Source of the DNA: an uncultured Acidobacteriota bacterium
GTDB lineage: Bacteria > Acidobacteriota > Thermoanaerobaculia > Multivoradales > UBA5704
DNA length: 64,000 nt
NCBI GenBank assembly: GCA_963770895.1
Contig: CAVYRF010000002.1
Coordinates: 800,001-864,000 of the forward strand
Direction of reading: 5' to 3'
Part shown: piece by piece, positions 29,447 to 47,567 of the stretch
Layout: the number at the start of each line of letters is the position of its first letter
How positions within the stretch are numbered: the first letter of the stretch is position 1
Notes under the pieces: generated by a model
Seen by the model: only the letters and a program-made list of their open reading frames with translations
Database searches by the model: none
What the model was told of the DNA's origin: nothing
Translations under genes and position numbers: made by a program

Positions 29447-30526
29447 TCAGATGTTGTCTAATGGAGGAGGCGAGGTGGGCGACGGGGCCGCCGCACCGGC
29501 AGGCTTGCAGCAGGGGCCGCCTTCGGGAGCGATCGGCAGGCCGTGCGGACAGCTGGCGGGGTGGCCAAGAAAGGCACACACCTGGTCCTCGAAGCCGGCC
29601 GCCACCGGCGCGGCGCGGCCGCACTGCGGCGACACCGCGCCCGGCGCCAGGGTGCGGGCCAGCAGCGCTTCGGCCAGACGCACCCGCCGCACCGCCGCCG
29701 CCGCCAGGACGCGCCCGCGCTCGGTAAAGGCGATGCGGCCGCCGGCGAAGGCCAGCAGCCCCTGTGCCAGCAGGTCGGCGACGCCGCGGCCGGTGACCGC
29801 GACGGTGCGCTGCTCCTCGGCCAGGGTGCGCCACAGGTCCACCAGCACCAGCTGCAGCTCGGGGCTGCCGGTGTCGTCCAGCTTGGCCAGCCGGCCGTGT
29901 TCCAGGCGCAGCTCGCGGCCCGCCCGCGCCGCGATCGTGGGGTCGTGGGTCACCAGGATGAGGGTATGGCCGCGCCGGTGCAGGTCCTCCAGCAGGGTCA
30001 TGACCACCGCTTCGTTGACCGCGTCCAGGTTGCCGGTCGGCTCGTCGGCAAGAATGAGCGGCGGCTGATTGATCAGCGCGCGGGCGATGCAGACCCGCTG
30101 CTGCTCGCCGCCGGACAGCTCGCTCGGCAGGTGGTCCAGGCGGTCGCCCAGACCGACGCGCCGCAGTGCACCTTCGGCTTCGCCACGGTCGGTGATGCTG
30201 TGGACGTACTGCGCCAGCATGACGTTTTCGAGCGCCGTCAGGTAGGGGATCAGGTGGAACTGCTGGAACACCAGGCCGACCGTCTGCTGGCGGTAGCGCG
30301 CCAGGTCGCGGTTGCCCAGCCCCACCAGGTCCACGCCGCCCACCAGCACCTGCCCTTCGGACGGCCGGTCCAGGCCGGCGAGCACGTTGAGCAGGGTGGT
30401 CTTGCCCGATCCCGAGGGGCCGGTGACCGCCACCCACTCGCCGGGGGCGATGCGCAGCGACAGGTCGTCGAGCGCCAGCAGCGACCCGAACCGCCGCGTC
30501 AAGCCCGCGATCTCGACCAGTGACAT
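29447..30526 (-). CDS. ABC transporter ATP-binding protein fused to a C-terminal DtxR/MntR-like dimerization domain
   Basis: GPSGSGKT, LSGGEQQR, ILADEPTGNLD; C-terminal FTERGRVLA...RLAEALL...FLGHPASCPHGLPI. Confidence 0.85.
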   Translation of the reverse strand: MSLVEIAGLTRRFGSLLALDDLSLRIAPGEWVAVTGPSGSGKTTLLNVLAGLDRPSEGQVLVGGVDLVGLGNRDLARYRQQTVGLVFQQFHLIPYLTALENVMLAQYVHSITDRGEAEGALRRVGLGDRLDHLPSELSGGEQQRVCIARALINQPPLILADEPTGNLDAVNEAVVMTLLEDLHRRGHTLILVTHDPTIAARAGRELRLEHGRLAKLDDTGSPELQLVLVDLWRTLAEEQRTVAVTGRGVADLLAQGLLAFAGGRIAFTERGRVLAAAAVRRVRLAEALLARTLAPGAVSPQCGRAAPVAAGFEDQVCAFLGHPASCPHGLPIAPEGGPCCKPAGAAAPSPTSPPPLDNI

Positions 30527-30538
30527 GCCGGCGCCCCC

Positions 30539-31396
30539 TCACTCGCCCCGCAGCACGCCGGCCGCGTCCAGCCGCTCGATCCGCGCCAGCGCCGCCGACA
30601 GCGACAGCCCCACCACCACCAGTGCCACCCCCACCGCCGCCGCCAACCCGGTCCAGGTCGGCTGCAATCCGGCGGCGCCGCCCAGCAGGCGGCTGGACAG
30701 GCCGCCGGCCGCGATCTCGCCCAGCAGCTCGCCGGTGAGCGCCGCGACCAGGGCGACAGCCAACAGCTCGGCGGCGAGCATGCCGCCGATGCGCCGGCCG
30801 GAGTAACCCAGCGCCAGCATCAGCCCGACCTCGACCCGCCGCTCGCCCACCAGGGCCGTGGTGGCAGCGCCCACCGAGAGCACGGCCAGCAGGAACGACA
30901 CCCCCGAGATCGCCACCAGGACCAGGGTGAGGCGGTGGCTGATGCGCGCGTCCGAGGCGGCGGTCTTGAGCAGCGGCGTCACCTCGACCCCCTCCAGGCG
31001 GCCGCCGATGGCCCGCGCCACCGCCGCCAGACGCGCCGGTTCGGCGCGCACTTCGATCCGCGCCAGCTGCGGCTGCGCCGGCGCCTGCCGTGCCGGCGCC
31101 GCGGGCAGGGCGGGCGGGGCGGCCAGGACCGCCACCGGCGTCGCCGCCAGCACGCCCGGTACGGAACGCACCACCGCCAGGGCGTCCGGCGGCATCGCCG
31201 GCGCGCCTCCCACCTGCGGGCGCACCTCCAGGTTGGGGCCGAAGGCCGCCAGCCCGGCGCCCAGGCGGCGGTCGGCGCGCTCCGCGAAGCCCGCCATGGT
31301 GGCGACCGTGCCGGCCGCCACCATCACCGCCACCAGGATCAGCGCCAGCTGCCGCGGGCGGCGCCGGAGGCTGGCCAGGACCAGGCGGGCGATCAC
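30539..31396 (-). CDS. FtsX/MacB-like ABC permease
   Basis: FGPNL, ERRVEVGLMLALG, four TM segments, VLRGE end. Confidence 0.82.
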   Translation of the reverse strand: MIARLVLASLRRRPRQLALILVAVMVAAGTVATMAGFAERADRRLGAGLAAFGPNLEVRPQVGGAPAMPPDALAVVRSVPGVLAATPVAVLAAPPALPAAPARQAPAQPQLARIEVRAEPARLAAVARAIGGRLEGVEVTPLLKTAASDARISHRLTLVLVAISGVSFLLAVLSVGAATTALVGERRVEVGLMLALGYSGRRIGGMLAAELLAVALVAALTGELLGEIAAGGLSSRLLGGAAGLQPTWTGLAAAVGVALVVVGLSLSAALARIERLDAAGVLRGE

Positions 31397-32832
31397 GCCG
31401 TCGCTTTCTTGAGCAGCGCCGCGGGGTAGCGCCCCAGCGCCCGCGATACCGGCAGCACGCTAGCCACCACCGCCACCGCCAATCCCATCAGCACGGCGAA
31501 CGGCAGCAGCACCGGGGTCCACGGCACGGCGACGCCCAGCGCGCCGGCCCCCAGCAGGCGCCCGGCGACCAACCCCAGGCCGCCGCCGGCGAGCCCGCCC
31601 AGGCAGCCGAGCAGCGCCGCCTCCGACAGGAAGAACAGCACCACCCGGCGGCGCGCCTCGCCGATCGCCACCAGCAGTCCCGCCTCCAGCCGCCGCTCCA
31701 GGACCGTCGCCGTCATCGCCGCCGTCACCCCGACGGCGGCGCCGGCCAGGGCCACGACGGCCAGCGCCAGCAGCACGCCGCGCAGGCGGCCCAGAACGTC
31801 GGCGGTGGCGCCGGCGACTTCCGTCAGCACCCGCGCCCGCGCCTCGGGCAGCGCCTGCTGCAGCTGGAACGCCACCGACGACGGATAGGCGGTGCAGTAC
31901 CAGGTTTCGTACTCGCGCGGCGTCATGTGCGCCGGGTCGCGCACGTTGCGGCTCTCGGGGTTGGTCTGGGCGTAAATCTCGGCACGCACGAACCGGCCCG
32001 GGCGGCCGGCCAGGCCGGCCACGACCGGCAGCGGCACGAACGCTTCGTCGTCTTCCTCGCCGCCGCTGGTGACCACCCCCACCACGCGCAGCCGCTGCGC
32101 ACGGGCTCCTAGCGACGCCAGCAGCTCGCCGGTAATGGGAGCGATGGGAGCGGTGGGAGCGGTGGGAGCGGTGGAGCTGAAACCCAGACGCTGCGCCAGC
32201 CGGCGGCCCAGCACGACCTCCGGCTCGGCGTCGGCGGTGGCGTCGGTTGCGGCGGTGGCGACGGGCGCAGGCGTGGCGCTGGTGGCGGCTGCCGATGCCG
32301 GGAGGTCGCGCGGCCAGCGCCCGGCAATGCGCAGCGTCGGCCGCGTCGCCGGCAGGCCGGTCGTCCAGCCATCTTCCAGCGGATGCCGGAACCAGGTCCC
32401 CACCACCTCGGCCACCGCCCCGGACGGCGAGGCGGCCTCCGGCGCGGCCATCGGCGCGACCGTGACCGCGGCCGCCGCTGCCGAGGGCGCCGGCGGCCCT
32501 GCCGCGACCCGCGCCGCGGCGGGCGCCGCGCCAACCACCGCCAGGCGCAGGCGCAGCGGATAGAACGGCGCCAGGGCGATGACGTTGTTGCGCCAGAAGA
32601 TGTGCCGCACCTGGGCGAGCCGCGCCACGTCGAGCAGCGGGCCGCCCGGCGCCGGCACCAGCTCCAGGTTGGCACCGTAGGAAGCCAGCTCGGCCGCCAG
32701 GCGGTCGCCGGATGCCAGCGTCACCTCGCCCAGCGCGGTGGCGCCCAGGGTGCCGAGCGCCACGGCGCTCACCGCCAGCAGCTTCCGCCGGGTGCCGCGG
32801 CGCAGCGATTCAAGCAGCAGGCGCGTGTACAT
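31393..32832 (-). CDS. FtsX/MacB-like ABC permease
   Basis: ELASYGANL, IFWRNNV, YETWYCTAYPSS, ERRLEAGLLVAIG. Confidence 0.85.
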   Translation of the reverse strand: MYTRLLLESLRRGTRRKLLAVSAVALGTLGATALGEVTLASGDRLAAELASYGANLELVPAPGGPLLDVARLAQVRHIFWRNNVIALAPFYPLRLRLAVVGAAPAAARVAAGPPAPSAAAAAVTVAPMAAPEAASPSGAVAEVVGTWFRHPLEDGWTTGLPATRPTLRIAGRWPRDLPASAAATSATPAPVATAATDATADAEPEVVLGRRLAQRLGFSSTAPTAPTAPIAPITGELLASLGARAQRLRVVGVVTSGGEEDDEAFVPLPVVAGLAGRPGRFVRAEIYAQTNPESRNVRDPAHMTPREYETWYCTAYPSSVAFQLQQALPEARARVLTEVAGATADVLGRLRGVLLALAVVALAGAAVGVTAAMTATVLERRLEAGLLVAIGEARRRVVLFFLSEAALLGCLGGLAGGGLGLVAGRLLGAGALGVAVPWTPVLLPFAVLMGLAVAVVASVLPVSRALGRYPAALLKKATA

Positions 32833-32856
32833 GGGTGTCGGGCGGTGCGCCCTCGC

Positions 32857-34242
32857 TCACATGCCGGGGTGCCGCATGGCGGCGGCGGCGCTGAAGATCG
32901 GCAGGCCCGCCGCCAGGTCGCGCGCCGCAAAGACCAGCTGGTCGCCTTGGCGGCGCGCCCGCAACGGCACCGGATTGCAGCCGCCGTGCTGGCCGATGCT
33001 GGGCGGATAGATGGTCGAGCCGCAGTGCAGGCAGGCGATGTTGGGACCGTCCTGGTAGTAGCCCTTGGGACCGCAGATCTCGCACGCGTCAAAGGCGGTG
33101 GCGATCGCCGTGTCCGGCTTCGCCGGATCGTCCAGCGGCACGGCGATGAAACGCACCGTAACGCCTGCCGGGACGGTCGGCAAGGTCACGGCATAGCGGC
33201 GCAGCGCGGTGCCGTGGAAGTCGGCCAGCGGCACCCGCACCAGGCCGTCGGCGCCGACCGGGAGCGATCGCGCCGGCGACAGCGCGGCCGGCGGCCGCGA
33301 ATAGACGAAGCCCAGACCCAGGGCGGCCAGGATGGCAACGCCCAGAGTGCCGGCCAGGACGCGGGCGCGCGCCTGGCGCTGGGCGCTGGCGCGCTCCAGG
33401 CGGGCGGCGGCACCGCTGGCTGGGCGCTCCTCGCCGCCACCGGACGGCGCCGGCGCCCCCGCCGGCACGGGCGGCCCCAAGGCGGCGCCGGACCCGGCAG
33501 CGCCCGGCGAGCGCCGGCCCGGAATCAGCAGCATCAGCAGCGGCAGCACCAGCACGGCGGCGATGAAGAAGAACTCGTTCTTGGCCAGCGGGCCGATCGC
33601 CGCCATGGTGGTCTGGTTGGCGGGCAGCCAGCCCGCCTCGGCCAGCTCGTGGTAGCCGTCCACCAGCAGCTGCACGATGAAGATCCCCAGGGCGATGCCG
33701 GTGATCTTGAAAAACCGCCCCAGGTCGACCCGCACGCTGCCGCGCACGAACAGCACGCCGAAGACAAAGGCCGCCCCAAGACCGATCAGCACCCCCAGCA
33801 GGGTCTGCAGGCCGCCGCTGGTCAGCGACAGGGCGGACAGGAAGAGCACGGTTTCCATGCCCTCGCGGAAGACCATCAGAAACGTGAACAGGAAGATGCC
33901 CATGGCGACGGACGTGCCCCGCTCGCGGGTCAGGATGCGCGCCAGGGCGCCCTTCATCTGGCCCGACAGCCCTTTGCTGTGGCGCCACATCCACACCAGC
34001 ATGGAGCCCACCACCACCGCGGCGATCAGGTAGAGGAAGCCTTCCAGCACGTCCTCGTCCAGCGTCAGGCGGCGCAGCGCGACGCCGCCGGCAAGGCTGG
34101 CGGCGATCGCCACCACGATGCCCGCCCACACCGCCCCCAGGTAGCGTCCGGCCGCCTCCCGGCGCAGGAAGGCGGCGATGATGCCCACCACCAGGGCCAC
34201 CTCGACCCCTTCGCGCAACGTCACGATCAGCGCTTCAACCAT
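32857..34242 (-). CDS. FTR1 iron permease fused to a DUF2318 Fe-S membrane domain
   Basis: Two RExxE motifs (REGVE, REGME); C-terminal AFDACEIC..GYYQ...CLHC...GGCNPVPL; ATG 34242. Confidence 0.88.
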   Translation of the reverse strand: MVEALIVTLREGVEVALVVGIIAAFLRREAAGRYLGAVWAGIVVAIAASLAGGVALRRLTLDEDVLEGFLYLIAAVVVGSMLVWMWRHSKGLSGQMKGALARILTRERGTSVAMGIFLFTFLMVFREGMETVLFLSALSLTSGGLQTLLGVLIGLGAAFVFGVLFVRGSVRVDLGRFFKITGIALGIFIVQLLVDGYHELAEAGWLPANQTTMAAIGPLAKNEFFFIAAVLVLPLLMLLIPGRRSPGAAGSGAALGPPVPAGAPAPSGGGEERPASGAAARLERASAQRQARARVLAGTLGVAILAALGLGFVYSRPPAALSPARSLPVGADGLVRVPLADFHGTALRRYAVTLPTVPAGVTVRFIAVPLDDPAKPDTAIATAFDACEICGPKGYYQDGPNIACLHCGSTIYPPSIGQHGGCNPVPLRARRQGDQLVFAARDLAAGLPIFSAAAAMRHPGM

Positions 34243-34726
34243 GGACCCCTCGCGCCGCACGCGCTTCGGCCGCCGGTCCCGCCGGTGTCTCGCGCGCCGC
34301 GCAGCTCTTGCAGAAGCCGTTGATCTGCAAGCTGTGGGCGGTGGGCAGGAAGCCGTGGGCGCGGCAGATCTCCGCCTGCAAGGCGGCGATGCCGGGGCTC
34401 ACGAACTCCACCACCCTGCCGCAGGCGGTGCACACCAGGTGATCGTGTCGCTGGCCGCCATGGACGTGCTCGTACAGGAAGCGCCGCCGGCCCAGCCGCT
34501 GCCGCCGCACCAGGCCACTCTCCACCAGCAGCTCCAGGTTGCGGTACACCGTGGCGCGCGAGATCTTCAAGCCGCGCTGCCGCACCGCCGCCAGCAGCTG
34601 CTCGGCATCGATATGCCCATGCTGGCGGAACACTTCGTCCAGCAGCGTCAGCCGCTCGGCGGTGACCCGCTGGCGCCGCTCCCGCAGGAAGCTGAGAAAC
34701 CGGTCTTTTTCACGCTGATCTTGCAT
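34235..34726 (-). CDS. fur: Fur family transcriptional regulator
   Basis: HIDAEQL, ISRATVYRNLELL, HDHLVCTACG, CKSC. Confidence 0.88.
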   Translation of the reverse strand: MQDQREKDRFLSFLRERRQRVTAERLTLLDEVFRQHGHIDAEQLLAAVRQRGLKISRATVYRNLELLVESGLVRRQRLGRRRFLYEHVHGGQRHDHLVCTACGRVVEFVSPGIAALQAEICRAHGFLPTAHSLQINGFCKSCAARETPAGPAAEARAARGVHG

Positions 34727-39635: not shown

Positions 39636-40979
39636 ATGCGGACCCAACGACGCAGCACCGGCCATCGCAGCACCAGCGCCTGGCGCATCCAGCCGCCGGG
39701 GTCGGAGCCGGACACCACCGCCCCGCCAACCAAAAAGCCCAAGAAACAACGGCGCCAGCGGGACCGCAAGGGGCCCGGCCTGGCCGAGCGGCTGCTGGAC
39801 TTCCTGCGCGAATACACCGCGGGCGTCAACACCGGCGAGGTCAAGCGCCTGTTCCGGCGTGACGCCACCAGCGCCTACTCGGTGCTGACCCGCGAGCATG
39901 CCGAGCTGCCGCAGCCGAAGCCCGGTCTCAAGCGCCTGCTGTTCCGCGTCAAGCTCGCCTTCCTGGGTCTGTCCTACAAGCTGACCCCGGCACGGCGGAT
40001 GCTCTTTGCCGCCTCCCTGATCTGCCTGGTCGTGGCGCTCATGTCGGGCAGCTGCCGCGTCGACATGGAGTCGCACCATCGCATCACCCACCTCTCGATC
40101 GACTTCTCGCCGATCCTGTTCGTGGCCTGCGCCGGCGGCCTGGTCTTCCTGCTGGCGCTGGAGCTGGTCGACCGCATCCGCGTGCGCGACGAGCTGGAAG
40201 TGGCGCGCGAGCTGCAGGCCGAGCTGCTGCCGCACGGCACCATCGACCTGCCGGGCTACCGGATCGCCCACTCCTACCGCACCGCCAACGAGGTGGGAGG
40301 CGACTACTACGAGGTGATCCAGCTGCCGGACGGCAGGGTGGCCCTGATGGTCGGCGACGCCACCGGGCACGGCATGGCCGCCGGCCTGGTGATGGCGATC
40401 GCCAACGCCACGCTCAAGACCGCTCTGGACCTGGACCCCGATCCCCGCCGCGTGCTGGCGCTGCTCAATCGCACTCTCTGCCGCACCGGCACCCGCCGCA
40501 CCTTCATGACCGTCTTCTACGCCCTGCTCACCCCCGCCACCGGCGAGCTGGTCGCGATCAGCGCCGGCCACCCCTACCCGGTGCTGCGCCGGGCAGCCGG
40601 CGGCATCGAAGAGCTGGGGCGCGGCGGCCTGCCGCTCGGGGTCCGGGACCACCTGGCGCCCGAGCCGCAGACGACGACGCTCGCGCCTGGCGACATGCTG
40701 CTGCTCTACACCGACGGTCTGGCCGAGGCGATCAACGCCAACTCCGAGGCTTTCGGCTACGACCGCATCGCCTCGCTCACGCGCCTGGGCGGCGCGCCGC
40801 AAGAGGTGCACGACCGCGTGCTGGCAAACTTCGACTTCCACATCGGCGGCGAGCCGCTGCGCGACGACCTCACCCTGCTGGTCGTCGCGCGCGACAGGGC
40901 GGCCCCGACCGCCGCCGTCGGCGCTGCCACCGCCGCCGCTGCCGGGACCGCGGCTCCCCTGCCCGTCGGTCCGGCATGA
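39636..40979 (+). CDS. Membrane-anchored PP2C/SpoIIE-type Ser/Thr phosphatase; start uncertain
   Basis: VGGDYY, GDATGHG, SAGHP, YTDGLAE, DDLT; two TM segments. Confidence 0.88.
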   Translation: MRTQRRSTGHRSTSAWRIQPPGSEPDTTAPPTKKPKKQRRQRDRKGPGLAERLLDFLREYTAGVNTGEVKRLFRRDATSAYSVLTREHAELPQPKPGLKRLLFRVKLAFLGLSYKLTPARRMLFAASLICLVVALMSGSCRVDMESHHRITHLSIDFSPILFVACAGGLVFLLALELVDRIRVRDELEVARELQAELLPHGTIDLPGYRIAHSYRTANEVGGDYYEVIQLPDGRVALMVGDATGHGMAAGLVMAIANATLKTALDLDPDPRRVLALLNRTLCRTGTRRTFMTVFYALLTPATGELVAISAGHPYPVLRRAAGGIEELGRGGLPLGVRDHLAPEPQTTTLAPGDMLLLYTDGLAEAINANSEAFGYDRIASLTRLGGAPQEVHDRVLANFDFHIGGEPLRDDLTLLVVARDRAAPTAAVGAATAAAAGTAAPLPVGPA

Positions 40980-41800
40980 AGCGCGCGACCGGCGGCGATG
41001 TTCGCCGGAGCGACCGCGGCGAGCGGCCGCCGCGGTGGTTCGCCGTGCCGCTGACCGACGCCCTCAACGGCCTGGAGCTGTGCCTGGGCGGCGGCTGGCG
41101 CGGGCTGGCGCTGATCGCCGCCGGGATGCTCGCGGGGTGGTGGGTCTACGTGCCGGTGCACGAGCTGCTGCACGCGGCGGGCTGCTGGCTGGCCGGCGGC
41201 GCGGTGCGGCGGCTGGAGATCGGCACGCTCTACGGCGGCGCGGCGCTGGCCCGCGTGCTGCCCTTTGTCGTCGGCGGCAGCGACTACGCCGGGCGCCTCT
41301 CGGGCTTCGACACCAGGGGCAGCGACCTGGTGTACCTGGCGACCGACCTGTGCCCCTTCCTGCTCAGCGTGTTTCCCGGCGTCTGGTGGTTGCGCCGCGC
41401 CGCCCGCGGCCGCCACCCTGTGCTGTTCGGCGCTTCGCTGCCGGTGGCGCTGGCGCCGTTTCTGTCGCTGACCGGCGACGCCTACGAAATCGGCTCGATC
41501 CTGGTCACCCGGCTGCCGCCCTGGGCGGCGCCCGCGGTGCGCCAGCTGCTGCGCGGGGACGACCTGGGGCTGCGCTGGAGCGCCCTGAGCGCGGCGGCGG
41601 CCGCGTGCGGCGGCAGCGCCGGCGCCGTCAGCGCCGCGCTCGGACCTTGCGCCGCGGCGCTGTCGCGCCTGCGGGAGGGATGCGTGTTGGCCGCGCTGGC
41701 CGGGCTCGGCTGGGCGCTCCTCACCTACGGGTGCGGCGCCGCCGTGGCGCGCGCCGCCGGACAGCCTGCCTTGCGGCCGGCGCCGCCGCCTACTGGCTGA
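40976..41800 (+). CDS. Membrane protein with HExxH motif (putative zinc metalloprotease)
   Basis: PVHELLHAAG; several hydrophobic segments; ATGA overlap with the PP2C gene. Confidence 0.6.
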   Translation: MKRATGGDVRRSDRGERPPRWFAVPLTDALNGLELCLGGGWRGLALIAAGMLAGWWVYVPVHELLHAAGCWLAGGAVRRLEIGTLYGGAALARVLPFVVGGSDYAGRLSGFDTRGSDLVYLATDLCPFLLSVFPGVWWLRRAARGRHPVLFGASLPVALAPFLSLTGDAYEIGSILVTRLPPWAAPAVRQLLRGDDLGLRWSALSAAAAACGGSAGAVSAALGPCAAALSRLREGCVLAALAGLGWALLTYGCGAAVARAAGQPALRPAPPPTG

Positions 41801-42821
41801 GCTTTTCCCAGTCGGCGTCGGGAGCGTCCAGCGAGATCGCCAGGCCGCCGTCCGAACCGGCGAAGACCGGGTCCTTGACCACCCGGACCTTGCCGCCGCC
41901 CACCGCCGCCAGCTCCTGCTCCAGGCGCGGGCCGAGGTTGCGGATCAGGCCGGTGCCGCCCGAAACGATGATGTTGTTGCGCACCTTTTCCTGGTATTCG
42001 GGCTGCACGCGCGACAGCAGGTCGAGCATGCTTTCCACGATCGGCGGCAGCAGCCCCTCGCAGGCCTGGCGCATCTCCTGGGTGATGTCGATCGGCGTCG
42101 GCTTGCCGTTGACCGGCACGGTGACCACCACCGGGTTGCGCGAGGCGCCGACGAAGCTGGCCTCCTCCTTCCACAGGCGCACCATGTGGATCGAAAACCG
42201 CGCCTCGGGAAAGCGCTCGCGCACCAGCCGCGACAGCTGCTCGTCGACCCAGTCGCCGGCCGCGGTCAGGGTGCGCTGGTCTTCTTCGGCCGGCAGGCGG
42301 CCGTTCATGACACAGAAGTCGGTGGTGCCCGCGCCCAGGTCGATGATCATGGTGTGCAGCAGCGCTTCCAGACCGTAGGCGACGGCAAAGGGCTCCGACA
42401 CGATCATCAGGCTGTCCACCGCCCCGGCGATCGCCTTGCGCACGTTCTGCTTGTTGACCCGCAAGGCCTCGGCGGGCACGCCGACCACCGCGCGCACCTT
42501 CATGCCTTCGCGCGTCTCGCGCGCCACGCCGACCAGCGACAGCAGGTGCCACAGCAGCTCGCGCACCGCCGCTTCGTCCTTTTCGGAGCCGTCCTTGATC
42601 AGACCCTGCTCCAGCGGCCGGTGCAGATCGAGCATCGAACGGTTGTCCAACGCCTCGCGGCCGACCAGCACCGGCTTTTTGAGCACCTTGCGCGCCACCA
42701 TGTCGAGCGGCCAGCCGACGTAGCTCTCGACCACGTGGCGCTGGCCGTTGGAGGCGGAGATCGAGCTGCGAGAGGTGCCCAGGTCGATGCCGACATGGAG
42801 GACAGGCCTGGTCTCGGTCAT
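41790..42821 (-). CDS. mamK: MamK-like actin-family ATPase
   Basis: 343 aa from ATG 42821: VGIDLGTSRS, YVGWP.D, RPLEQG, VSEPFAVAYGL, IIDLGAGTTDFC, P.EEDQ.TL..AGD, QPEYQ, SGG, DPVFAG, WEKL, which match MamK-family rather than MreB signatures. Confidence 0.8.
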   Translation of the reverse strand: MTETRPVLHVGIDLGTSRSSISASNGQRHVVESYVGWPLDMVARKVLKKPVLVGREALDNRSMLDLHRPLEQGLIKDGSEKDEAAVRELLWHLLSLVGVARETREGMKVRAVVGVPAEALRVNKQNVRKAIAGAVDSLMIVSEPFAVAYGLEALLHTMIIDLGAGTTDFCVMNGRLPAEEDQRTLTAAGDWVDEQLSRLVRERFPEARFSIHMVRLWKEEASFVGASRNPVVVTVPVNGKPTPIDITQEMRQACEGLLPPIVESMLDLLSRVQPEYQEKVRNNIIVSGGTGLIRNLGPRLEQELAAVGGGKVRVVKDPVFAGSDGGLAISLDAPDADWEKLSQ

Positions 42822-42886
42822 GCGGTCAAATTCCTTTCCGTCCGGCTCGGTGCGCTGCGCGACTGGCCAAGCGGGACACCGGGTGG

Positions 42887-43912
42887 CTAGTGCCCGGCGC
42901 CGCGGGCGGCGCTGGCGTACGCCCGCAGCCCTTCCGCCAGGGCCAGGGCAATATATTGGCGATACAGCGGTTTGGCCAGCAGCTGCGCCTCCTCGTTGTT
43001 GGACAGGCACGACACTTCGGCGAGGATGGCCGGCATCTGCGTCGACAGCAGGACGATGAACGGCGCCGATTTGACGCCGCGGTCCTCCACCTTGGGATTC
43101 ACCTTCCCCAGCGAGCGGAACAGGGACGCCTGGACCATCTGCGCCAGCTGGCGCGACTTGTCCTGGCGCACCCCGGCGTAGATACGGTCGAGCAGCTGGC
43201 GCATGTCGGCCATCGAATAGCCCGAGCCGCGGTTCTCCGAGGCCGCCAGCCGGCTGAGCGCCGGATCGTTGGTAGGTCCCAGGAAGTAGGTTTCGACGCC
43301 GCGCGCCGCGTGGTTCTCGATCCAGTTGACGTGCACCGAAACGAAGACGTCCGCCCCCTGCCGGTTGGCGATCGCGGCGCGCTCGGCCAGCGAGATCGCG
43401 CTGTCGTCGCTGCGGGTCATCACCACCTGGAAGACTCCCTGGTCTTCCAGCAGCTGGCGCAGGCGCTGCGCGATGTCCAGGGTGATGTCTTTTTCGAGCA
43501 CTCCCGAGGGCGTCCGGGTGCCGCGACTGTCGCCGCCGTGGCCGGCATCGATGGCGACCTTGCGCACCGCCAGCGGCAGCACGGCCGCGTCGATCGCCGG
43601 CGCCGGCGACGACAGGCCGGGGATCGCCGCGCCGGGCGACAGGGCCGCGGCCAGTCCGGATGGCGAGGCCGCGGCAGGCACGGTGCGCAGCGCCGGCGGG
43701 TTGGTCCGGCTGCTGAGCAGGCCGGTCGCACCCACCAGCGCGCTGGACACCAGCAGGAGGGCCAGCGCGCCCGCCCAGCGCAGCCGGCGGCGGCGCCCGC
43801 GGGAGCGGCGCACCGCCGCCGCGGCCTGTCCCTGCCACAGCTCGACGTTCTGCTGCACCAGGTCCTGCACCATGCGGCGCTTCACACGATCGAGATTGGG
43901 CTGCGACCACAT
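42887..43912 (-). CDS. N-acetylmuramoyl-L-alanine amidase (Amidase_3), TM-anchored
   Basis: IDAGHGG, EKDITL, MTRSDD, SVHVN, PAILAEVSCLSN; N-terminal TM helix. Confidence 0.92.
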   Translation of the reverse strand: MWSQPNLDRVKRRMVQDLVQQNVELWQGQAAAAVRRSRGRRRRLRWAGALALLLVSSALVGATGLLSSRTNPPALRTVPAAASPSGLAAALSPGAAIPGLSSPAPAIDAAVLPLAVRKVAIDAGHGGDSRGTRTPSGVLEKDITLDIAQRLRQLLEDQGVFQVVMTRSDDSAISLAERAAIANRQGADVFVSVHVNWIENHAARGVETYFLGPTNDPALSRLAASENRGSGYSMADMRQLLDRIYAGVRQDKSRQLAQMVQASLFRSLGKVNPKVEDRGVKSAPFIVLLSTQMPAILAEVSCLSNNEEAQLLAKPLYRQYIALALAEGLRAYASAARGAGH

Positions 43913-43924
43913 ACCGCGCGCCTG

Positions 43925-46249
43925 CTATCGGGTGCCGATGTGGATGCGCAGCTGGCGCGGACCAGGCTCGATGGCGGTGAGCACCGCATCGGGCCGGGCC
44001 AGGTCCAGCACGACGTGCAGTTCCTGCGGCGGATGGTAGCCGGTGCGGATCTGCTGCACCTCGGCGGAGCTGACGCCCAGCCGCGCGCTGGCAAAGGGCC
44101 GCGTGATGCCGCTGATCCTGATCACTTCGCGCGCCGCCGGGCCGGCGATGCGAGCTTCGGTCCAGGTGCCGGCGGCGAACTCGCCGTTGCCCCACAGGGT
44201 CACCACCGTGCCGCCGCCATGGGCCGCTTCCCAGGTGATGCGCTGGATCGCCGTGGCGCGGCCCGCGGCCGCGACGCCAGCCTGGCTGGCGGCAGCCTGC
44301 TGCGACGACGCGGGGGTGGAGTCGGTGGACGAACCCTTGGCGCGCACCAGGGGCGGGGGCGCCACGGCGGCAGATGCCTCCTGCCGCGCGGCGCTCCTGG
44401 CGCCGGGGGCGGGAGCGCTCCCCAGGGCAGCGGTGGCGCCGCCGGCCGCGACGCTCGCGGCAGCCCCGGCGCCGGAGCCGGTCCCGCCGGCAGGCCGGCC
44501 GCTGGGCGATGCCGGAGATGCGGGCGACGGGGTGGCCGCCGCAAGCTGGGCGGCGGCGGACGGCGGCGCGGCCGCGGAGGAGTCCGCGGACGGCGGCGAT
44601 TGCGCACCCTGGCCGGCCCCAGCCGGCGCCGGCGACCGCTGCCGCGACGCTTCCAGGGCAGCGGCCATCTCGGGAGTTGCGGCGGTGTCAGAGGTTGGCG
44701 GAGCCGTGGCGGCGCCGGGGCTGGCCGGGAGGGGGAGCCCCCTGCCGGCTCGGCGGGCCGCGGCACCGGGTCCTGCGGCGGCGTCCAGCGAGCCCGGCAG
44801 CACCGGCTGGCGCGGGTTGCGCCGGGTATGCAGCGCGGGTGCGCCGTCAGCAGGCGGCCCGCCGGCCGTATCCGCCGCGGCAGCGGCACCGCGGTGGTCG
44901 AGCCACTCCAGCACCGAGTCGCGCAGCAGGTAGACCGTCACACCCGCCAGGGCCAGCGCCGCCACCAGCCCGATCAGCGGCGCCCGCGAGCGCCGCCGCG
45001 GCGCGCGGTGGTCGAACGCGGCAAACGCGGGAGGCGGCGCCGCCGGACCCGCGGCCGCCGGCGCCGGCGGCGTCAGATCGTCGAGCGCCGGCAGCGTCGA
45101 AGCCATGTGTACCAACGGATCGACGTCCCCATCGGCGGTGGCGGCGCCGGCCACGGATGCGGGATGCCATGGGTCCGGCGGCGCCGTCGGTTCCTGCGGC
45201 CACCCGGTCGACCGCGCAGCGTCTGGCGCCGGCCAGTCCTGCGTGGGCGCCGCGGCACCTGATGGCCGTGCCTGTGCTGGCGCGGCGGCCCCTGCGGGCC
45301 ACTCTTGCGCCGGCGGCGCGGCATCCGACGGCCAGCCCTGACCTGGGGTGGCGGCACCCGAAGGCCAGCCGTCCGGTGCCGCCGGCGCGGCGCCACCCGC
45401 GGGCCACGCACCCGCCGGCGAAGCATTTTCTGCAGGCCAGGAAGACGGTGCCGCACCGGCGGCGGCCCAGCCTGCCTGCACTGCCGCATGGTCCGGCGCG
45501 GGGCGCCCCGGATGCACCGCGGGATCTGCCAGGCCGGCGACAGCCGGATCCGCCGGCGCCAGGGCTTCCAGGGGCGAGCGGGGGGTGATCGCGGGGATGC
45601 CGGGAACGGGCTGGATCGCCGGAATCTCGACGTGCCAGGGCATCGATGACGGCTCCTGCGCCCGCTGGGGACCCGCGGCAGCGGCGCCGACCTCAGGGGC
45701 CTCAGGGGCCTGAGAGACCTGAGGGGCCTGGGCGGCTGGCGCCGCGGACGGCTGGGCCCCCGGCGGCGCCGCGGCGGCCTGCAGCCCCGCCAGATCGAAC
45801 GGCTTGCCGCCGTGCGCCACGTAGTCGTCCACGATCTTGTAGATCAGGTCCTTGCTGCCGGCGCTGAGCTCGAGAAACCGCACCCCCATGCCGGACGGCC
45901 GCTCCGGCCCTTCCGGCCGCACGCGCGTCCAGACCACTTCGCCGCGGCCGCGGATCAGCTCGAAGCCGTCACCCAGGCGGAATTCGAACTCCAGCAGCTG
46001 TCCCGGCGGCTCGGGCGAATCGGTGCGGATGAAAATGCCGCCTGGCGAGATGTTGGCGACGTACTCGTTGATAAAACCGCTGAAGCGGTCGAATTTCAGC
46101 TGGATGCGGTGAGCGACGGGCACGCGTGTGGAGTCGCGCGGGGAGTTTGAGTAGTCGGGCACCGAGCTACCTTGGAACGGCTCGTCTTGATTGCTGCGGT
46201 CGTCGGGCGCCGCCCATCGTCCCCAGACCTCCGGCCTATCTCCATCCAT
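43925..46249 (-). CDS. PilZ (TIGR02266-like) - Pro/Ala linker - TM - AMIN-like domain protein
   Basis: RDSTR (RxxxR), NISPGGIFI, GEVVW, GMGVRF; TM LIGLVAALALAGVTVYLL; C-terminal VQQIRTG..ELHVVLDL. Confidence 0.8.
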   Translation of the reverse strand: MDGDRPEVWGRWAAPDDRSNQDEPFQGSSVPDYSNSPRDSTRVPVAHRIQLKFDRFSGFINEYVANISPGGIFIRTDSPEPPGQLLEFEFRLGDGFELIRGRGEVVWTRVRPEGPERPSGMGVRFLELSAGSKDLIYKIVDDYVAHGGKPFDLAGLQAAAAPPGAQPSAAPAAQAPQVSQAPEAPEVGAAAAGPQRAQEPSSMPWHVEIPAIQPVPGIPAITPRSPLEALAPADPAVAGLADPAVHPGRPAPDHAAVQAGWAAAGAAPSSWPAENASPAGAWPAGGAAPAAPDGWPSGAATPGQGWPSDAAPPAQEWPAGAAAPAQARPSGAAAPTQDWPAPDAARSTGWPQEPTAPPDPWHPASVAGAATADGDVDPLVHMASTLPALDDLTPPAPAAAGPAAPPPAFAAFDHRAPRRRSRAPLIGLVAALALAGVTVYLLRDSVLEWLDHRGAAAAADTAGGPPADGAPALHTRRNPRQPVLPGSLDAAAGPGAAARRAGRGLPLPASPGAATAPPTSDTAATPEMAAALEASRQRSPAPAGAGQGAQSPPSADSSAAAPPSAAAQLAAATPSPASPASPSGRPAGGTGSGAGAAASVAAGGATAALGSAPAPGARSAARQEASAAVAPPPLVRAKGSSTDSTPASSQQAAASQAGVAAAGRATAIQRITWEAAHGGGTVVTLWGNGEFAAGTWTEARIAGPAAREVIRISGITRPFASARLGVSSAEVQQIRTGYHPPQELHVVLDLARPDAVLTAIEPGPRQLRIHIGTR

Positions 46250-46430
46250 GCGCGTCGGCCGATAATACCAGCATCGCCGCCCCGAATGGGCTGTTGGCGG
46301 GTGTGCTAGAGTTCAGCTCCCTTTCGAGGGGCGTTCGCACTCCCCTCAATCCCCCTGTCGGGATCGATCATGATCGCAGCAAGGATCGTCGGCGGCTCGC
46401 CACGGGCAGACCGCCGTGGAGTGACTTGGG

Positions 46431-47567
46431 ATGGCCAGAAAGCGCGTGGTGATTGCTGGCGCCGGCGGTATGGGCAGCGCCGTAGCCCTGTTATTGCGGG
46501 AGCTGGGCGACTTCGAAGTGGACCTGTTTCTCGGCGACTCGGACAGGGAACGGGCGGAGCTGGCGGCGGCCTGGGTGCGCGAAGGCTCCACCCAGCCCGG
46601 CGAGGTGCGGTCGTTTCACATGCCGGTCGACGCCACGTCGCCGGGCCTGGCGGCGGCCCTGGACAGCGCCGACCTGCTGCTCGACTGCCTGCCGGGCAAG
46701 GAAGCGCCGCGCATGGCGCAGCTGGCCTGCGAACACCACCTCCACTATGCCAACCTGACGGAGCATGTGCGCGAAACCAATGAGATCGTCAAGATCGCGG
46801 CTGGGTCCGACATGGGCTTCGTCCTGCAGACCGGCCTCGCTCCGGGCTTCATCAACGTGCTGGCCAACGGTCTGTTTCAGCGCTTCTGCCGCGAAAACGG
46901 CGTCGACAAAGCCGACGTCGTGGCCATGCGGGTGGGGGCGCTCAGCACCACCGCCCGGCCGCCGCACTACTACGGCTTCACCTGGAGCTCGATCGGCGTG
47001 GCCACGGAGTACGTCGAGCCGGCCACCGTGGTGCGCGAGGGCAAGCGCACCACCCGGCCGTCGCTGTCCGACCGTGAAACCATCCTGATCCACGGGGTGG
47101 TCTACGAAGAAGCGCTGACCTCCGGCGGCGCCGCCGATCTGCCGCAGGTCCTGGCCGGCCGGGTCGGCCGGCTCGACTACAAGACCCTGCGCTATCCCGG
47201 CCACTATGCCTGGGTGCAATCGATCCTCGACGAAGCGCCGGCCGGCGCCGACCGGGCCGAATACCTTCTGCGCCGCATGGAGCACGAAGTGCCCTTTGTC
47301 GACGACGACCTGGTGACCACCTATGCGGCCGTCGAAGGACGGACCGCGGACGGCAGCCTGCGCCGGCTCGAGGACGCGCGGGTGATCCGCCCCCTGCGGA
47401 TCGGCGCCCGCACCCTCAAGGCGATCCAGGCGACCACGGCGGCGGGGCTGGCCGAGTCCGCCCGCCTGCTGCTGCGGGGGGACTGCAAAGGGGTCTGCCT
47501 GCAGAGCCAGATCGATCCTCCAGAGTTCATGCATGGGCCGTTTGTCAGCACCATTTACGGCGCTTGA
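46431..47567 (+). CDS. Saccharopine/lysine dehydrogenase family protein
   Basis: IAGAGGMG, QTGLAPG, RVGAL, TWS, TSGG, YKTLRYPGH. Confidence 0.85.
   Translation: MARKRVVIAGAGGMGSAVALLLRELGDFEVDLFLGDSDRERAELAAAWVREGSTQPGEVRSFHMPVDATSPGLAAALDSADLLLDCLPGKEAPRMAQLACEHHLHYANLTEHVRETNEIVKIAAGSDMGFVLQTGLAPGFINVLANGLFQRFCRENGVDKADVVAMRVGALSTTARPPHYYGFTWSSIGVATEYVEPATVVREGKRTTRPSLSDRETILIHGVVYEEALTSGGAADLPQVLAGRVGRLDYKTLRYPGHYAWVQSILDEAPAGADRAEYLLRRMEHEVPFVDDDLVTTYAAVEGRTADGSLRRLEDARVIRPLRIGARTLKAIQATTAAGLAESARLLLRGDCKGVCLQSQIDPPEFMHGPFVSTIYGA

What the first reader, a model, noticed from the sequence alone, without database searches (positions are those of the whole stretch)
41790..42821. MamK-clade actin outside any magnetosome island
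Seen: GIDLGTSRS, YVGWP.D, SEPFAVAYGL, DLGAGTTDFC, P.EEDQ.TL..AGD, QPEYQ and the C-terminal W..L follow the MamK pattern as I recall it. MreB has GTANT, EP.AAAIGAG and DIGGGT instead. No mamA/B/E/M/Q-like genes and no mreC/mreD are present in the window. Inference: an orphan MamK-like filament with another cargo, informative about the origin of MamK.
Basis: partly seen in the sequence, partly recalled or inferred. Interest (0 to 1): 0.7.

Follow-up and report, generated by a model that had tools for sequence, protein, structure and literature searches.

The report
Actin-like filament gene paired with amidase
This soil bacterium carries a relative of the magnetosome actin MamK that has nothing to do with magnetosomes: it is always encoded next to a membrane-anchored cell-wall-cutting enzyme whose inner tail it probably grips, which suggests a widespread and undescribed way of steering cell-wall cleavage from inside the cell.

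Summary
The ORF is real: minus strand, 41790-42821, 343 aa. It is a MamK-family actin-like ATPase, not MreB. The MamK model gives 371 bits against a cut-off of 400; MreB models give about 70 bits; MamK structures match at E 1e-77. The 95%-complete genome shows no magnetosome genes.

It is not an orphan. An AmiA/B/C-type N-acetylmuramoyl-L-alanine amidase lies directly upstream on the same strand in 147 of 151 informative related loci. These come from Acidobacteriota and from many other lineages (locus GC 0.39-0.75).

The amidase has a conserved cytoplasmic helix of about 25 residues, a basic stretch, one transmembrane helix and a periplasmic catalytic domain. Among 26 genomes of the same class, the tailed amidase is present in 12 of 12 that have the actin and in 0 of 14 that lack it.

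Amidase-linked actins form one clade (bootstrap 99, SH-aLRT 100). That clade is separate from the one holding Magnetospirillum MamK.

A complex prediction places the tail helix in the actin's IA/IIA cleft (score 0.86, best control 0.00).

Best reading: a cytoplasmic filament that positions or gates a peptidoglycan amidase. In this lineage a PilZ-TM-AMIN-like protein is encoded just upstream.

The parts
41790..42821 (-). MamK-family actin-like ATPase, 343 aa, member of the amidase-linked clade
   Evidence: NCBIfam MamK gives 371 bits against a cut-off of 400. PDB MamK matches at E 1e-77. The AF2 model (pLDDT 77.8) is closest to the MamK filament 5ljv (TMq 0.84, E 5e-33), then BeeR, then MreB. 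D13, E143, D161, G163-T166 and G288-G289 are invariant in 44 orthologues. Clade support is 99/100.
42822..42886 (-). 65-nt spacer between the amidase stop and the actin start
   Evidence: In related loci the two genes overlap by 4 nt in 26 of 75 pairs and are 0-6 nt apart in 20 more. These figures use first-start-codon ORF calls, and the starts were not verified. A 4-nt overlap is also seen where the amidase ends at 10004 and the actin match starts at 10001.
42887..43912 (-). Tail-anchored N-acetylmuramoyl-L-alanine amidase, 341 aa
   Evidence: Pfam Amidase_3 gives 168.6 bits over residues 119-330. The best PDB matches are AmiA 8c2o, AmiB 3ne8 and AmiC 4bin, aligned over the whole domain including the insertion; amidases without the insertion align only to residues 119-214. 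Directly upstream of the actin in 79 of 80 and 68 of 72 informative loci.
43778..43912 (-). Cytoplasmic tail of the amidase (residues 1-45): a conserved helix motif followed by a basic stretch
   Evidence: R9 and N22 are invariant, and M1, K11 and R12 nearly invariant, in 44 orthologues. The motif is visible in 70 loci and in distant P0006-type loci. It is predicted to dock on the actin.
43715..43777 (-). Transmembrane helix of the amidase (residues 46-66)
   Evidence: A hydrophobic stretch preceded by an Arg-rich segment. The topology is inferred from the positive-inside rule.
42923..43558 (-). Amidase_3 catalytic domain with an AmiA/B/C-type insertion
   Evidence: The GHGG, E140, H194 and E299 columns are invariant. 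Their assignment as zinc or catalytic residues is recalled, not tested here.
43925..46249 (-). PilZ / Pro-Ala-rich linker / TM / linker / AMIN-like protein, 774 aa. It ends 12 nt upstream of the amidase start.
   Evidence: The PilZ domain gives 48.1 bits over residues 38-138. The TM helix spans residues 425-442. The C-terminal 115 aa were modelled at pLDDT 94.2, and the top four Foldseek hits are AMIN-bearing chains (AmiC 4bin TMq 0.69; PilQ 4av2, 4aqz, 3jc8), none at E<=0.001. The homologous gene is found in 41 of 80 loci. PilZ was confirmed in 11 of 20 upstream ORFs scanned.
40976..41800 (+). Convergent membrane protein with an HExxH motif; its 3' end overlaps the actin gene by 11 nt. It may not belong to the system.
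   Evidence: Found in 41 of 80 loci, only in the close clade. No Pfam family at E<=0.001; DUF3267 'putative zincin peptidase' at E 0.24.

Best explanation
The gene encodes a cytoplasmic, ATP-dependent actin-like filament protein of the MamK family. It works as a two-gene module with the amidase encoded just upstream.

The amidase is a bitopic inner-membrane protein. It has a conserved amphipathic helix of about 25 residues and a basic stretch in the cytoplasm, one transmembrane helix, a Pro/Ala-rich linker, and an AmiA/B/C-type Amidase_3 domain in the periplasm.

The tail helix binds the hydrophobic cleft between subdomains IA and IIA of the actin. This is the 'barbed-end' groove used by ParR on ParM and by WH2 motifs on actin. 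Through that contact the filament recruits, clusters or gates the amidase, so that peptidoglycan cleavage is placed or timed from inside the cell.

In this lineage a third protein is encoded immediately upstream: a cytoplasmic PilZ domain, a TM helix and a periplasmic AMIN-like domain. It may add a c-di-GMP input and peptidoglycan targeting.

Shown here:
- the family assignment
- the gene pairing, its breadth and the co-occurrence of the two genes
- the separate clade
- the domain make-up

Inferred:
- the membrane topology
- direct binding (supported by a model only)
- the cellular role, whether cell separation, shape or another local wall remodelling
For: 1. Pairing. The amidase lies directly upstream on the same strand in 79 of 80 genome loci; the 80th, L008, has only 59 nt of upstream DNA. 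It also does so in 68 of 72 informative loci among L086-L167; 10 more lack upstream DNA. The G220 and G051 loci, at 50-52% identity, were confirmed by Pfam (160.8 and 157.2 bits). The two genes often overlap by 4 nt.

2. Co-occurrence. In 26 genomes of the same class, a full-length tail-bearing amidase (225-316 bits, query residues 3-12 to 335+) is present and adjacent in 12 of 12 genomes with the actin and in 0 of 14 without it. A catalytic-domain-only paralogue is present in all 26. Three families (f3, f8, f12) hold both states.

3. One clade. The amidase-linked actins group with UFBoot 99 / SH-aLRT 100 in the careful tree of 49 rows, and with SH-aLRT 100 in the quick tree of 84 rows.

4. 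Tail conservation. R9 and N22 are invariant. The same type of motif, followed by a basic stretch and a TM helix, occurs in loci with GC from 0.39 to 0.75.

5. Complex prediction. Score 0.86 in each of three runs; best of 3 controls 0.00. That mark was reached by 58 of 80 solved complexes and by 2 of 110 mismatched pairs. The counts hold only roughly here because my own alignments were used. The runs agree in at least 86% of contacts, and the partner pLDDT is at least 65. The interface is tail residues 10-28 against actin residues 121-128, 138-141, 149-155, 174-176 and 329-341.

6. The ATPase and nucleotide-binding columns are invariant, and the fold is closest to the MamK filament.

7. R/K121, K124 and R/K128 are typical of the amidase-linked clade (33-34 of 35 rows). 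The MTB-anchor clade has L/I at position 128.
Against: - There is no experimental evidence and no expression data.
- Binding rests on a model's own confidence. It could be borrowed from solved peptide-in-cleft complexes of actin or ParM.
- Predicted interface positions are no more conserved than the rest of the protein (0.66 against 0.66). They differ from the MTB clade no more than the rest does: 11 of 21 consensus residues are identical at the interface, against 171 of 322 elsewhere.
- In filaments the IA/IIA cleft is partly used for longitudinal contacts (general knowledge). The tail may therefore bind only filament ends or monomers, which would change the mechanism.
- Four relatives lack the amidase (L122, L142, L152, L164). 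L122 sits inside the clade, so the actin can persist without it.
- The module is absent from many genomes of the same class, so it is accessory and its cellular role is open.
- Related genomes are not independent samples.
Confidence: 0.6

Rival explanations
1. The contact is real but its purpose is reversed. The amidase tail serves mainly as the membrane anchor or nucleator of the filament, as ParR, FtsA or ZipA do for their polymers. The filament's real cargo is something else and is not encoded nearby.
For: The predicted site is the barbed-end groove, where nucleators and end-binders sit (the comparison is from general knowledge). The actin persists without the amidase in L122.
Against: Only the amidase is conserved next to the actin, across 147 of 151 informative loci. 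The amidase's catalytic columns are invariant, so its enzyme activity is under selection within the pair.
Confidence: 0.13
2. The actin acts as an ATP-driven switch, not a track. Polymerisation or ATP hydrolysis is passed through the tail and TM helix to release the amidase's inhibitory insertion. This would be analogous to FtsEX-EnvC activation of AmiA and AmiB.
For: The amidase carries the AmiA/B/C-type insertion. The tail is tightly conserved. No LytM-type activator gene is conserved in the locus.
Against: A single TM helix followed by a long Pro/Ala linker transmits conformation poorly (inference). Activators encoded elsewhere were not searched for.
Confidence: 0.12
3. The two genes are co-transcribed for regulatory or historical reasons, and their products do not touch.
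For: Gene order alone does not prove contact. Interface positions are not specially conserved.
Against: The tailed amidase and the actin are strictly present together or absent together (12 of 12 against 0 of 14). An otherwise periplasmic enzyme carries a conserved cytoplasmic helix. The complex prediction passes its controls.
Confidence: 0.08
4. It is an MreB-like elongation paralogue that guides wall synthesis generally.
For: Pfam MreB_Mbl gives 74 bits. Public records call it 'rod shape-determining protein'.
Against: NCBIfam MreB models give 59-70 bits against cut-offs of 293-366. No mreC or mreD is nearby. A canonical MreB exists elsewhere in the genome. MreB is the distant outgroup in all trees.
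Confidence: 0.03
5. It is a true magnetosome MamK, and the magnetosome genes lie elsewhere or in the unassembled 5% of the genome.
For: It is 38-50% identical to MamK and the fold is closest to MamK.
Against: MamI gives no match. MamP reaches 34.6 of 300 bits and MamQ 103.8 of 250 bits; the same models also ring in E. coli and other controls. The LemA region is ordinary. The protein sits in a separate clade. The MamI search rang nowhere, controls included, so it is weak evidence on its own.
Confidence: 0.01

Closest known systems
MamK of Magnetospirillum (PDB 5ljv, 5ljw, 5jyg; NCBIfam NF040964)
   Same: It has an actin fold with the same subdomain layout and is the best sequence and fold match (E 1e-77; TMq 0.84). 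The nucleotide-binding motifs and the C-terminal W..L are shared.
   Different: It scores below the family cut-off (371 against 400 bits). It sits in a separate, well-supported clade. The genome has no magnetosome genes. Its partner is an amidase, not magnetosome proteins.
BeeR, the three-stranded tubular actin of Verrucomicrobiota (PDB 8r2n; PMC11929497, passages read)
   Same: It is a MamK-related actin in non-magnetotactic bacteria, and its function is unknown. It is the second-best structural match.
   Different: The BeeR model gives only 201.8 bits against a cut-off of 530. The protein lacks the disordered N-terminal extension of 30-50 residues that the paper calls the family's hallmark. 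BeeR-like proteins lie outside the MamK-proper group (99/95). The gene context of BeeR was not examined here.
ParM-ParR and actin-WH2 type peptide-in-cleft complexes
   Same: A short helix of the partner is predicted to lie in the IA/IIA hydrophobic cleft (the comparison is recalled, not computed).
   Different: The partner is a membrane enzyme's tail, not a DNA-binding adaptor. The locus is chromosomal and inherited along the lineage.
AmiA/AmiB/AmiC cell-separation amidases with FtsEX-EnvC or NlpD control
   Same: The Amidase_3 domain carries the regulatory insertion. As with FtsEX, a cytoplasmic ATPase is coupled to periplasmic wall cleavage (the analogy is inferred).
   Different: There is no Tat or Sec-cleaved signal and no N-terminal AMIN domain. 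Instead there is a cytoplasmic tail and a TM anchor. The AMIN-like domain sits on a separate PilZ protein. A canonical longer paralogue exists in all 26 genomes checked.
MreB-RodZ-PBP2/RodA elongasome
   Same: A cytoplasmic actin is linked to a periplasmic wall enzyme through a bitopic membrane protein (analogy).
   Different: The enzyme's own tail would make the contact. The enzyme is a hydrolase, not a synthase. The actin belongs to a different family.

Membership tests
MamK (NCBIfam NF040964, magnetosome actin) | Score at or above the curated cut-off of 400 bits | tested here: not met
   371 bits. Relatives range from 223 to 508 bits, and the model does not separate the clades.
MamK (NCBIfam NF040964, magnetosome actin) | Actin fold closest to solved MamK | tested here: met
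   phmmer E 1.3e-77 over residues 7-341. Foldseek 5ljv E 5e-33, TMq 0.84.
MamK (NCBIfam NF040964, magnetosome actin) | Encoded in a genome or cluster with other magnetosome genes (MamI, MamP, MamQ and so on) | tested here: not met
   MamI none; MamP 34.6 of 300 bits; MamQ 103.8 of 250 bits. The genome is 94.95% complete. The window and the LemA region hold ordinary genes.
MamK (NCBIfam NF040964, magnetosome actin) | Groups with Magnetospirillum MamK or MamK-like in a tree | tested here: not met
   The anchors are P0038 (about 68% identical to 5jyg) and P0085 (MamK-like protein of P. magneticum). They lie in a clade supported 98/99. The window protein lies in another clade supported 99/100.
MreB/Mbl | Reaches the NCBIfam MreB cut-offs; mreC and mreD neighbours | tested here: not met
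   70 bits against 293 and 59 bits against 366. No MreC or MreD among 43 ORFs. Only the broad Pfam PF06723 passes (74 bits).
BeeR (NF053558) | Score at or above 530 bits, and a disordered N-terminal extension of 30-50 aa | tested here: not met
   201.8 bits. The first strand begins at residue 7. The hallmark is taken from PMC11929497.
Actin/ASHKA ATPases | Phosphate-1, phosphate-2 and adenosine motifs and the catalytic Glu are conserved | tested here: met
   D13, G15, T16, E143, D161, G163, G165, T166, G288 and G289 are invariant in 44 orthologues. The functional naming of these residues is recalled.
AmiA/B/C-type cell-separation amidase (Pfam Amidase_3) | Amidase_3 domain with the regulatory insertion | tested here: met
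   168.6 bits; 212 residues cover a 174-position profile. Full-domain alignment to AmiA 8c2o, AmiB 3ne8 and AmiC 4bin; amidases without the insertion align only to residues 119-214.
AmiA/B/C-type cell-separation amidase (Pfam Amidase_3) | Exported soluble or AMIN-bearing periplasmic protein | tested here: not met
   The N-terminus is a conserved helix, a basic stretch and a TM helix, not a signal peptide followed by AMIN. Signal-peptide cleavage was not tested with a dedicated predictor.
AMIN domain (C-terminus of the PilZ protein) | Pfam PF11741 match or AMIN fold | tested here: inconclusive
   Pfam gives none at E<=1 for the window copy, and 17 bits (below cut-off) in L016. In the fold search the top four hits are AMIN-bearing chains (TMq 0.64-0.69, prob 1.00), but the best E-value is 5e-3.
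ParM/Alp plasmid-segregation actins | Adjacent ParR-type adaptor and centromere, on a mobile element | not tested
   No such neighbour was seen among the conserved neighbours. Centromere repeats were not searched for.

The most novel reading that the evidence does not exclude
A large, widespread and so far unrecognised branch of the MamK family is a dedicated 'amidase actin'. The cytoplasmic filament directly grips the cytoplasmic tail of a peptidoglycan amidase and so places or times wall cleavage across the membrane. In database size this branch appears comparable to, or larger than, the magnetosome branch: a close relative of the window protein in this clade (P0006) has at least 6804 90%-identity clusters at E<=1e-60. 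Magnetosome MamK may then be a later re-use of a wall-associated cytoskeleton.
Probability: 0.4. Interest if true: 0.85.

Novelty: new variant of a known kind. Interest (0 to 1): 0.72.

Why it matters
Bacterial actins are known to guide wall synthesis (MreB), division (FtsA), DNA (ParM) and magnetosomes (MamK). A filament wired directly to a wall hydrolase would be a new use of the actin fold. It would also be a new way of controlling amidases, alongside FtsEX-EnvC and NlpD.

The family is large and is mis-annotated as 'rod shape-determining protein MreB' or 'MamK family'. It occurs in records labelled Acidobacteriota, Desulfobulbaceae, Syntrophobacteraceae, Nitrospira, Defluviicoccus and Hyphomicrobium.

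It also matters for studies that use mamK as a marker of magnetotactic bacteria. The hypothesis is directly testable with a peptide and a purified protein.

Tried and rejected
- Magnetosome search. NCBIfam accessions next to NF040964 were tried. NF040963, NF040965 and NF040966 proved to be MamI, MamP and MamQ and were used. NF040962 (near_HgcAB) and NF040967 (cytc_ExtN) are unrelated.
- A weak MamP/PDZ hit lies 12 kb from the LemA gene. It was inspected and is an ordinary HtrA-type protease separated from LemA by metabolic genes.
- Expression. No RNA holder is listed for the pair.
- Promoter and terminator scan of 41400-46700. It found one sigma-70-like site inside the amidase 3' end (42978-42950) and no convincing terminator. 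This is not informative.
- Interface conservation test. There is no enrichment.
- Pfam AMIN on the PilZ protein's C-terminus. No match.
- Rosetta-stone check. The long (523-1232 aa) MamK-like proteins carry no amidase or other Pfam domain in their N-terminal parts.
- A third conserved gene in P0006-type loci. None was found beyond a response-regulator-like gene in 7 of 38 loci.
- Literature. No paper in the searchable library holds MamK + Acidobacteria + amidase (0 papers). MamK + amidase + peptidoglycan gave 2 irrelevant papers. Actin-like + amidase + filament + operon gave 5 papers; the one whose amidase passage was read (PMC12270681, a ParM paper) only draws a sporulation amidase gene in a gene-cluster figure. 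'MamK family' + actin gave 0. Subscription journals are not covered. Lefevre et al. 2013 on non-magnetotactic MamK homologues is known to me only through a citing passage.
- Earlier findings of this scan: nothing near this place.
Full report
**Observation.** The ORF lies at window 41790-42821 on the minus strand and encodes 343 aa. The NCBIfam MamK subfamily model NF040964 gives 371 bits (E 4.9e-111; cut-off 400). BeeR gives 201.8 bits (cut-off 530) and the MreB models give 59-70 bits. Pfam sees only the broad MreB_Mbl family, at 74 bits. Against the PDB, the three MamK entries match at E about 1e-77 over residues 7-341, BeeR 8r2n at 1e-37 and MreB at 6e-11 or weaker. An AlphaFold2 model built on 44 orthologues (pLDDT 77.8) is closest to the MamK filament 5ljv (TMq 0.84, E 5e-33), then BeeR, then MreB. 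Public records name this protein's 90% cluster (135 members) 'rod shape-determining protein MreB'.

**No magnetosome genes.** The window is G000:C2:800001-864000, in a genome of 8.16 Mb in 3 contigs that is 94.95% complete.
- The genome has one MamK-type gene and one canonical MreB elsewhere.
- MamI NF040963 gives no match. It rang in no control genome either, so this is weak evidence.
- MamP NF040965 reaches 34.6 bits against a cut-off of 300, which is PDZ-domain level.
- MamQ NF040966 reaches 103.8 bits against 250. This is LemA level, 3.4 Mb away, and the model also rings in E. coli and other controls.
- The LemA region holds LemA-TPM, an HtrA-type protease 12 kb away, and metabolic genes in between.
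- The 43 window ORFs scanned are ordinary genes: purL, topoisomerase I, XerC-type recombinase, HslVU, TyrRS, an FTR1/Fur iron-uptake group, citrate synthase and so on. None is Mam-like or MreC/MreD.

**The gene is not an orphan.** Immediately upstream on the same strand lies a 341-aa Amidase_3 protein (42887-43912; 168.6 bits). Upstream of that lies a 774-aa PilZ-domain protein (43925-46249). A genome-contig scan found 200 relatives and kept 80 (L003-L082). They are 64-92% identical and nearly all come from Thermoanaerobaculia or other Acidobacteriota MAGs. The amidase is directly upstream on the same strand in 79 of the 80; the remaining locus, L008, has only 59 nt of upstream DNA. The other window neighbours are not conserved, except a convergent HExxH membrane protein (41 of 80 loci) and, in the closer clade, the PilZ protein (41 of 80 by clustering; PilZ confirmed in 11 of 20 upstream ORFs scanned). 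By first-start ORF calls, the amidase and actin genes overlap by 4 nt in 26 of 75 pairs and are 0-6 nt apart in 20 more. In the window the gap is 65 nt.

**Breadth of the pairing.**
- Two Acidobacteriota genomes with actins only 50-52% identical (G220, G051) also have an Amidase_3 gene directly upstream.
- A metagenome scan used an alignment of eleven other MamK-family representatives, with P0006 first. It found 564 relatives and kept 80 (L088-L167), with locus GC from 0.39 to 0.75.
- Of the 82 loci L086-L167, 68 have the amidase ending 16-122 nt upstream of the actin, 10 have too little upstream DNA, and 4 have none (L122, L142, L152, L164).
- The four without an amidase have no Mam-like neighbours.
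- Overall, 147 of 151 informative loci carry the pair.
- P0006 has at least 6804 90%-identity clusters at E<=1e-60. Where sources name them, the labels include Desulfobulbaceae, Syntrophobacteraceae, Nitrospira, Defluviicoccus and Hyphomicrobium.

**Co-occurrence.** In a sample of 401 genomes of the phylum, 30 have the actin at E<=1e-40. They are concentrated in the window's order and class. I then searched 26 genomes of that class with the amidase.
- All 12 genomes with the actin have a full-length amidase match that includes the tail (225-316 bits), adjacent to the actin.
- None of the 14 genomes without the actin has one.
- All 26 have a second match, to the catalytic domain only (113-140 bits, in ORFs of 513-601 aa and one of 930 aa). 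This is presumably the ordinary cell-separation amidase.
- Families f3, f8 and f12 contain both states.
- One of the 14 (G024) is an unpublished genome; the count is 13 without it.
- Related genomes are not independent samples.

**Phylogeny.** Anchors for true magnetosome actins were P0038 (about 68% identical to the solved AMB-1 MamK) and P0085 (the MamK-like protein of Paramagnetospirillum magneticum).
- The quick tree of 71 rows used the window protein, 57 of the 150 listed representatives (fragments left out), 12 orthologues and the genome's own MreB as outgroup. The acidobacterial clade had SH-aLRT 99 and the anchor clade 98.
- The quick tree of 84 rows added metagenome loci. P0138, P0142, P0050 and some other representatives were dropped. 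All 33 amidase-linked rows, plus P0002, P0006 and the amidase-less L122, formed one clade with SH-aLRT 100.
- The careful tree of 49 rows (LG+C20, 1000 ultrafast bootstraps) gave the amidase-linked clade 99/100, the anchor clade 98/99 and the MamK-proper group 99/95, with BeeR-like proteins outside it.
- The branches that join the clades have support of only 24-49, so their order is unknown.
- The NCBIfam MamK score does not separate the clades. Values from 223 to 508 bits are spread over both.

**The amidase.** Its best solved relatives are AmiA 8c2o, AmiB 3ne8 and AmiC 4bin, aligned across the whole domain including the insertion. Amidases that lack the insertion align only to residues 119-214. 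The GHGG, E140, H194 and E299 columns are invariant in 44 orthologues. Their assignment as zinc and catalytic residues is recalled, not tested. The N-terminus is not a signal peptide. It has a conserved helix (window residues about 6-26; R9 and N22 invariant; K11 and R12 nearly so), then an Arg-rich stretch, then a hydrophobic helix at residues 46-66. The P0006-type amidases carry a recognisably related motif followed by a basic stretch and a TM helix. By the positive-inside rule the tail is cytoplasmic; this is inferred.

**Predicted contact.** The full actin (44-row alignment) was folded with tail residues 1-45 (44-row alignment).
- The score was 0.86 in each of three runs, and the best of three controls scored 0.00.
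- That mark was reached by 58 of 80 solved complexes and by 2 of 110 mismatched pairs. The counts hold only roughly here because my own alignments were used.
- The runs agree in at least 86% of contacts, and the partner pLDDT is at least 65.
- Tail residues 10-28 lie against actin residues 121-128, 138-141, 149-155, 174-176 and 329-341.
- By comparison with actin, this is the hydrophobic cleft between subdomains IA and IIA plus the C-terminal helices (recalled, not computed).
- This supports binding but does not show it, and the pose may be borrowed from solved peptide-in-cleft complexes.
- Interface positions are not more conserved than the rest of the protein (0.66 against 0.66).
- R/K121, K124 and R/K128 are typical of the amidase-linked clade. 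The anchor clade has L/I at position 128.

**The PilZ protein.** It has a PilZ domain (residues 38-138), a Pro/Ala-rich linker, a TM helix (residues 425-442), a second low-complexity linker and a C-terminal beta domain of 115 aa. That domain was modelled at pLDDT 94.2. Its four best Foldseek hits are AMIN-bearing chains (AmiC 4bin, and PilQ 4av2, 4aqz and 3jc8; TMq 0.64-0.69), but none reaches E<=0.001, and Pfam AMIN does not match the window copy. In the more distant loci the upstream gene is different (ABC_tran_2, PEP carboxylase, acyl-CoA dehydrogenase), so this protein is a lineage-specific addition.

**Interpretation.** The best-supported reading is a two-gene module in which a cytoplasmic MamK-family filament engages the cytoplasmic tail of a membrane-anchored AmiA/B/C-type amidase, and so positions, clusters or gates peptidoglycan cleavage. 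The module is accessory, because many genomes of the same class lack it and all keep another amidase. Its role is therefore likely a specialised wall remodelling rather than basic division. Which process it serves is not known.

**What is known.** MamK homologues in non-magnetotactic bacteria have been noted before: a passage in bioRxiv 10.1101/682252 cites Lefevre et al. 2013. BeeR is a characterised example of unknown function (PMC11929497, passages read). I found no paper linking a MamK-family actin to an amidase. Subscription journals are not covered by the library.

Noticed in passing
window 43925-46249 (-): A 774-aa protein with a cytoplasmic PilZ domain, long Pro/Ala-rich linkers, one TM helix and a C-terminal AMIN-like beta domain. 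It ends 12 nt upstream of the amidase start. This architecture would link c-di-GMP sensing to a periplasmic peptidoglycan-binding domain.
   Followed up: partly
window 40976-41800 (+): A convergent membrane protein with an HExxH motif overlaps the actin gene's 3' end by 11 nt. It is conserved in 41 of 80 related loci. It has no Pfam family, only DUF3267 'putative zincin peptidase' at E 0.24.
   Followed up: partly
protein P0071 (representative library, 768 aa): A natural fusion of a full FtsZ (TIGR00065, 351.5 bits) to a MamK-family actin (446 bits). In the trees it sits next to the Magnetospirillum anchors.
   Followed up: no
proteins P0017-P0033 (523-1232 aa): A well-supported group of MamK-family actins carries N-terminal extensions of 190-900 residues with no Pfam domain.
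   Followed up: partly
window 29447-34726 (-): An iron-uptake group: an ABC ATPase with a C-terminal Fe_dep_repr_C domain, two FtsX-like permeases, an FTR1/FtrD-like permease and Fur. It lies 7-12 kb from the actin and is not conserved next to it in other loci, so it does not indicate a magnetosome link.
   Followed up: partly
loci L142, L152, L164 and L122: MamK-family actins without an upstream amidase. L122 lies inside the amidase-linked clade, next to an M48 peptidase-TPR gene. L164 follows two unknown ORFs and ABC transporter genes. L142 lies near a pentapeptide-repeat protein. These may be further uses of the fold.
   Followed up: partly
loci such as L096:2099-3322 (+): In 7 of 38 P0006-type loci, a 407-aa protein with a receiver-like N-terminus is encoded directly downstream of the actin.
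   Followed up: no
window 42950-42978 (-): A sigma-70-like promoter match lies inside the 3' end of the amidase gene, upstream of the actin start (1 site found against 0.2 expected). It may be an internal promoter.
   Followed up: no
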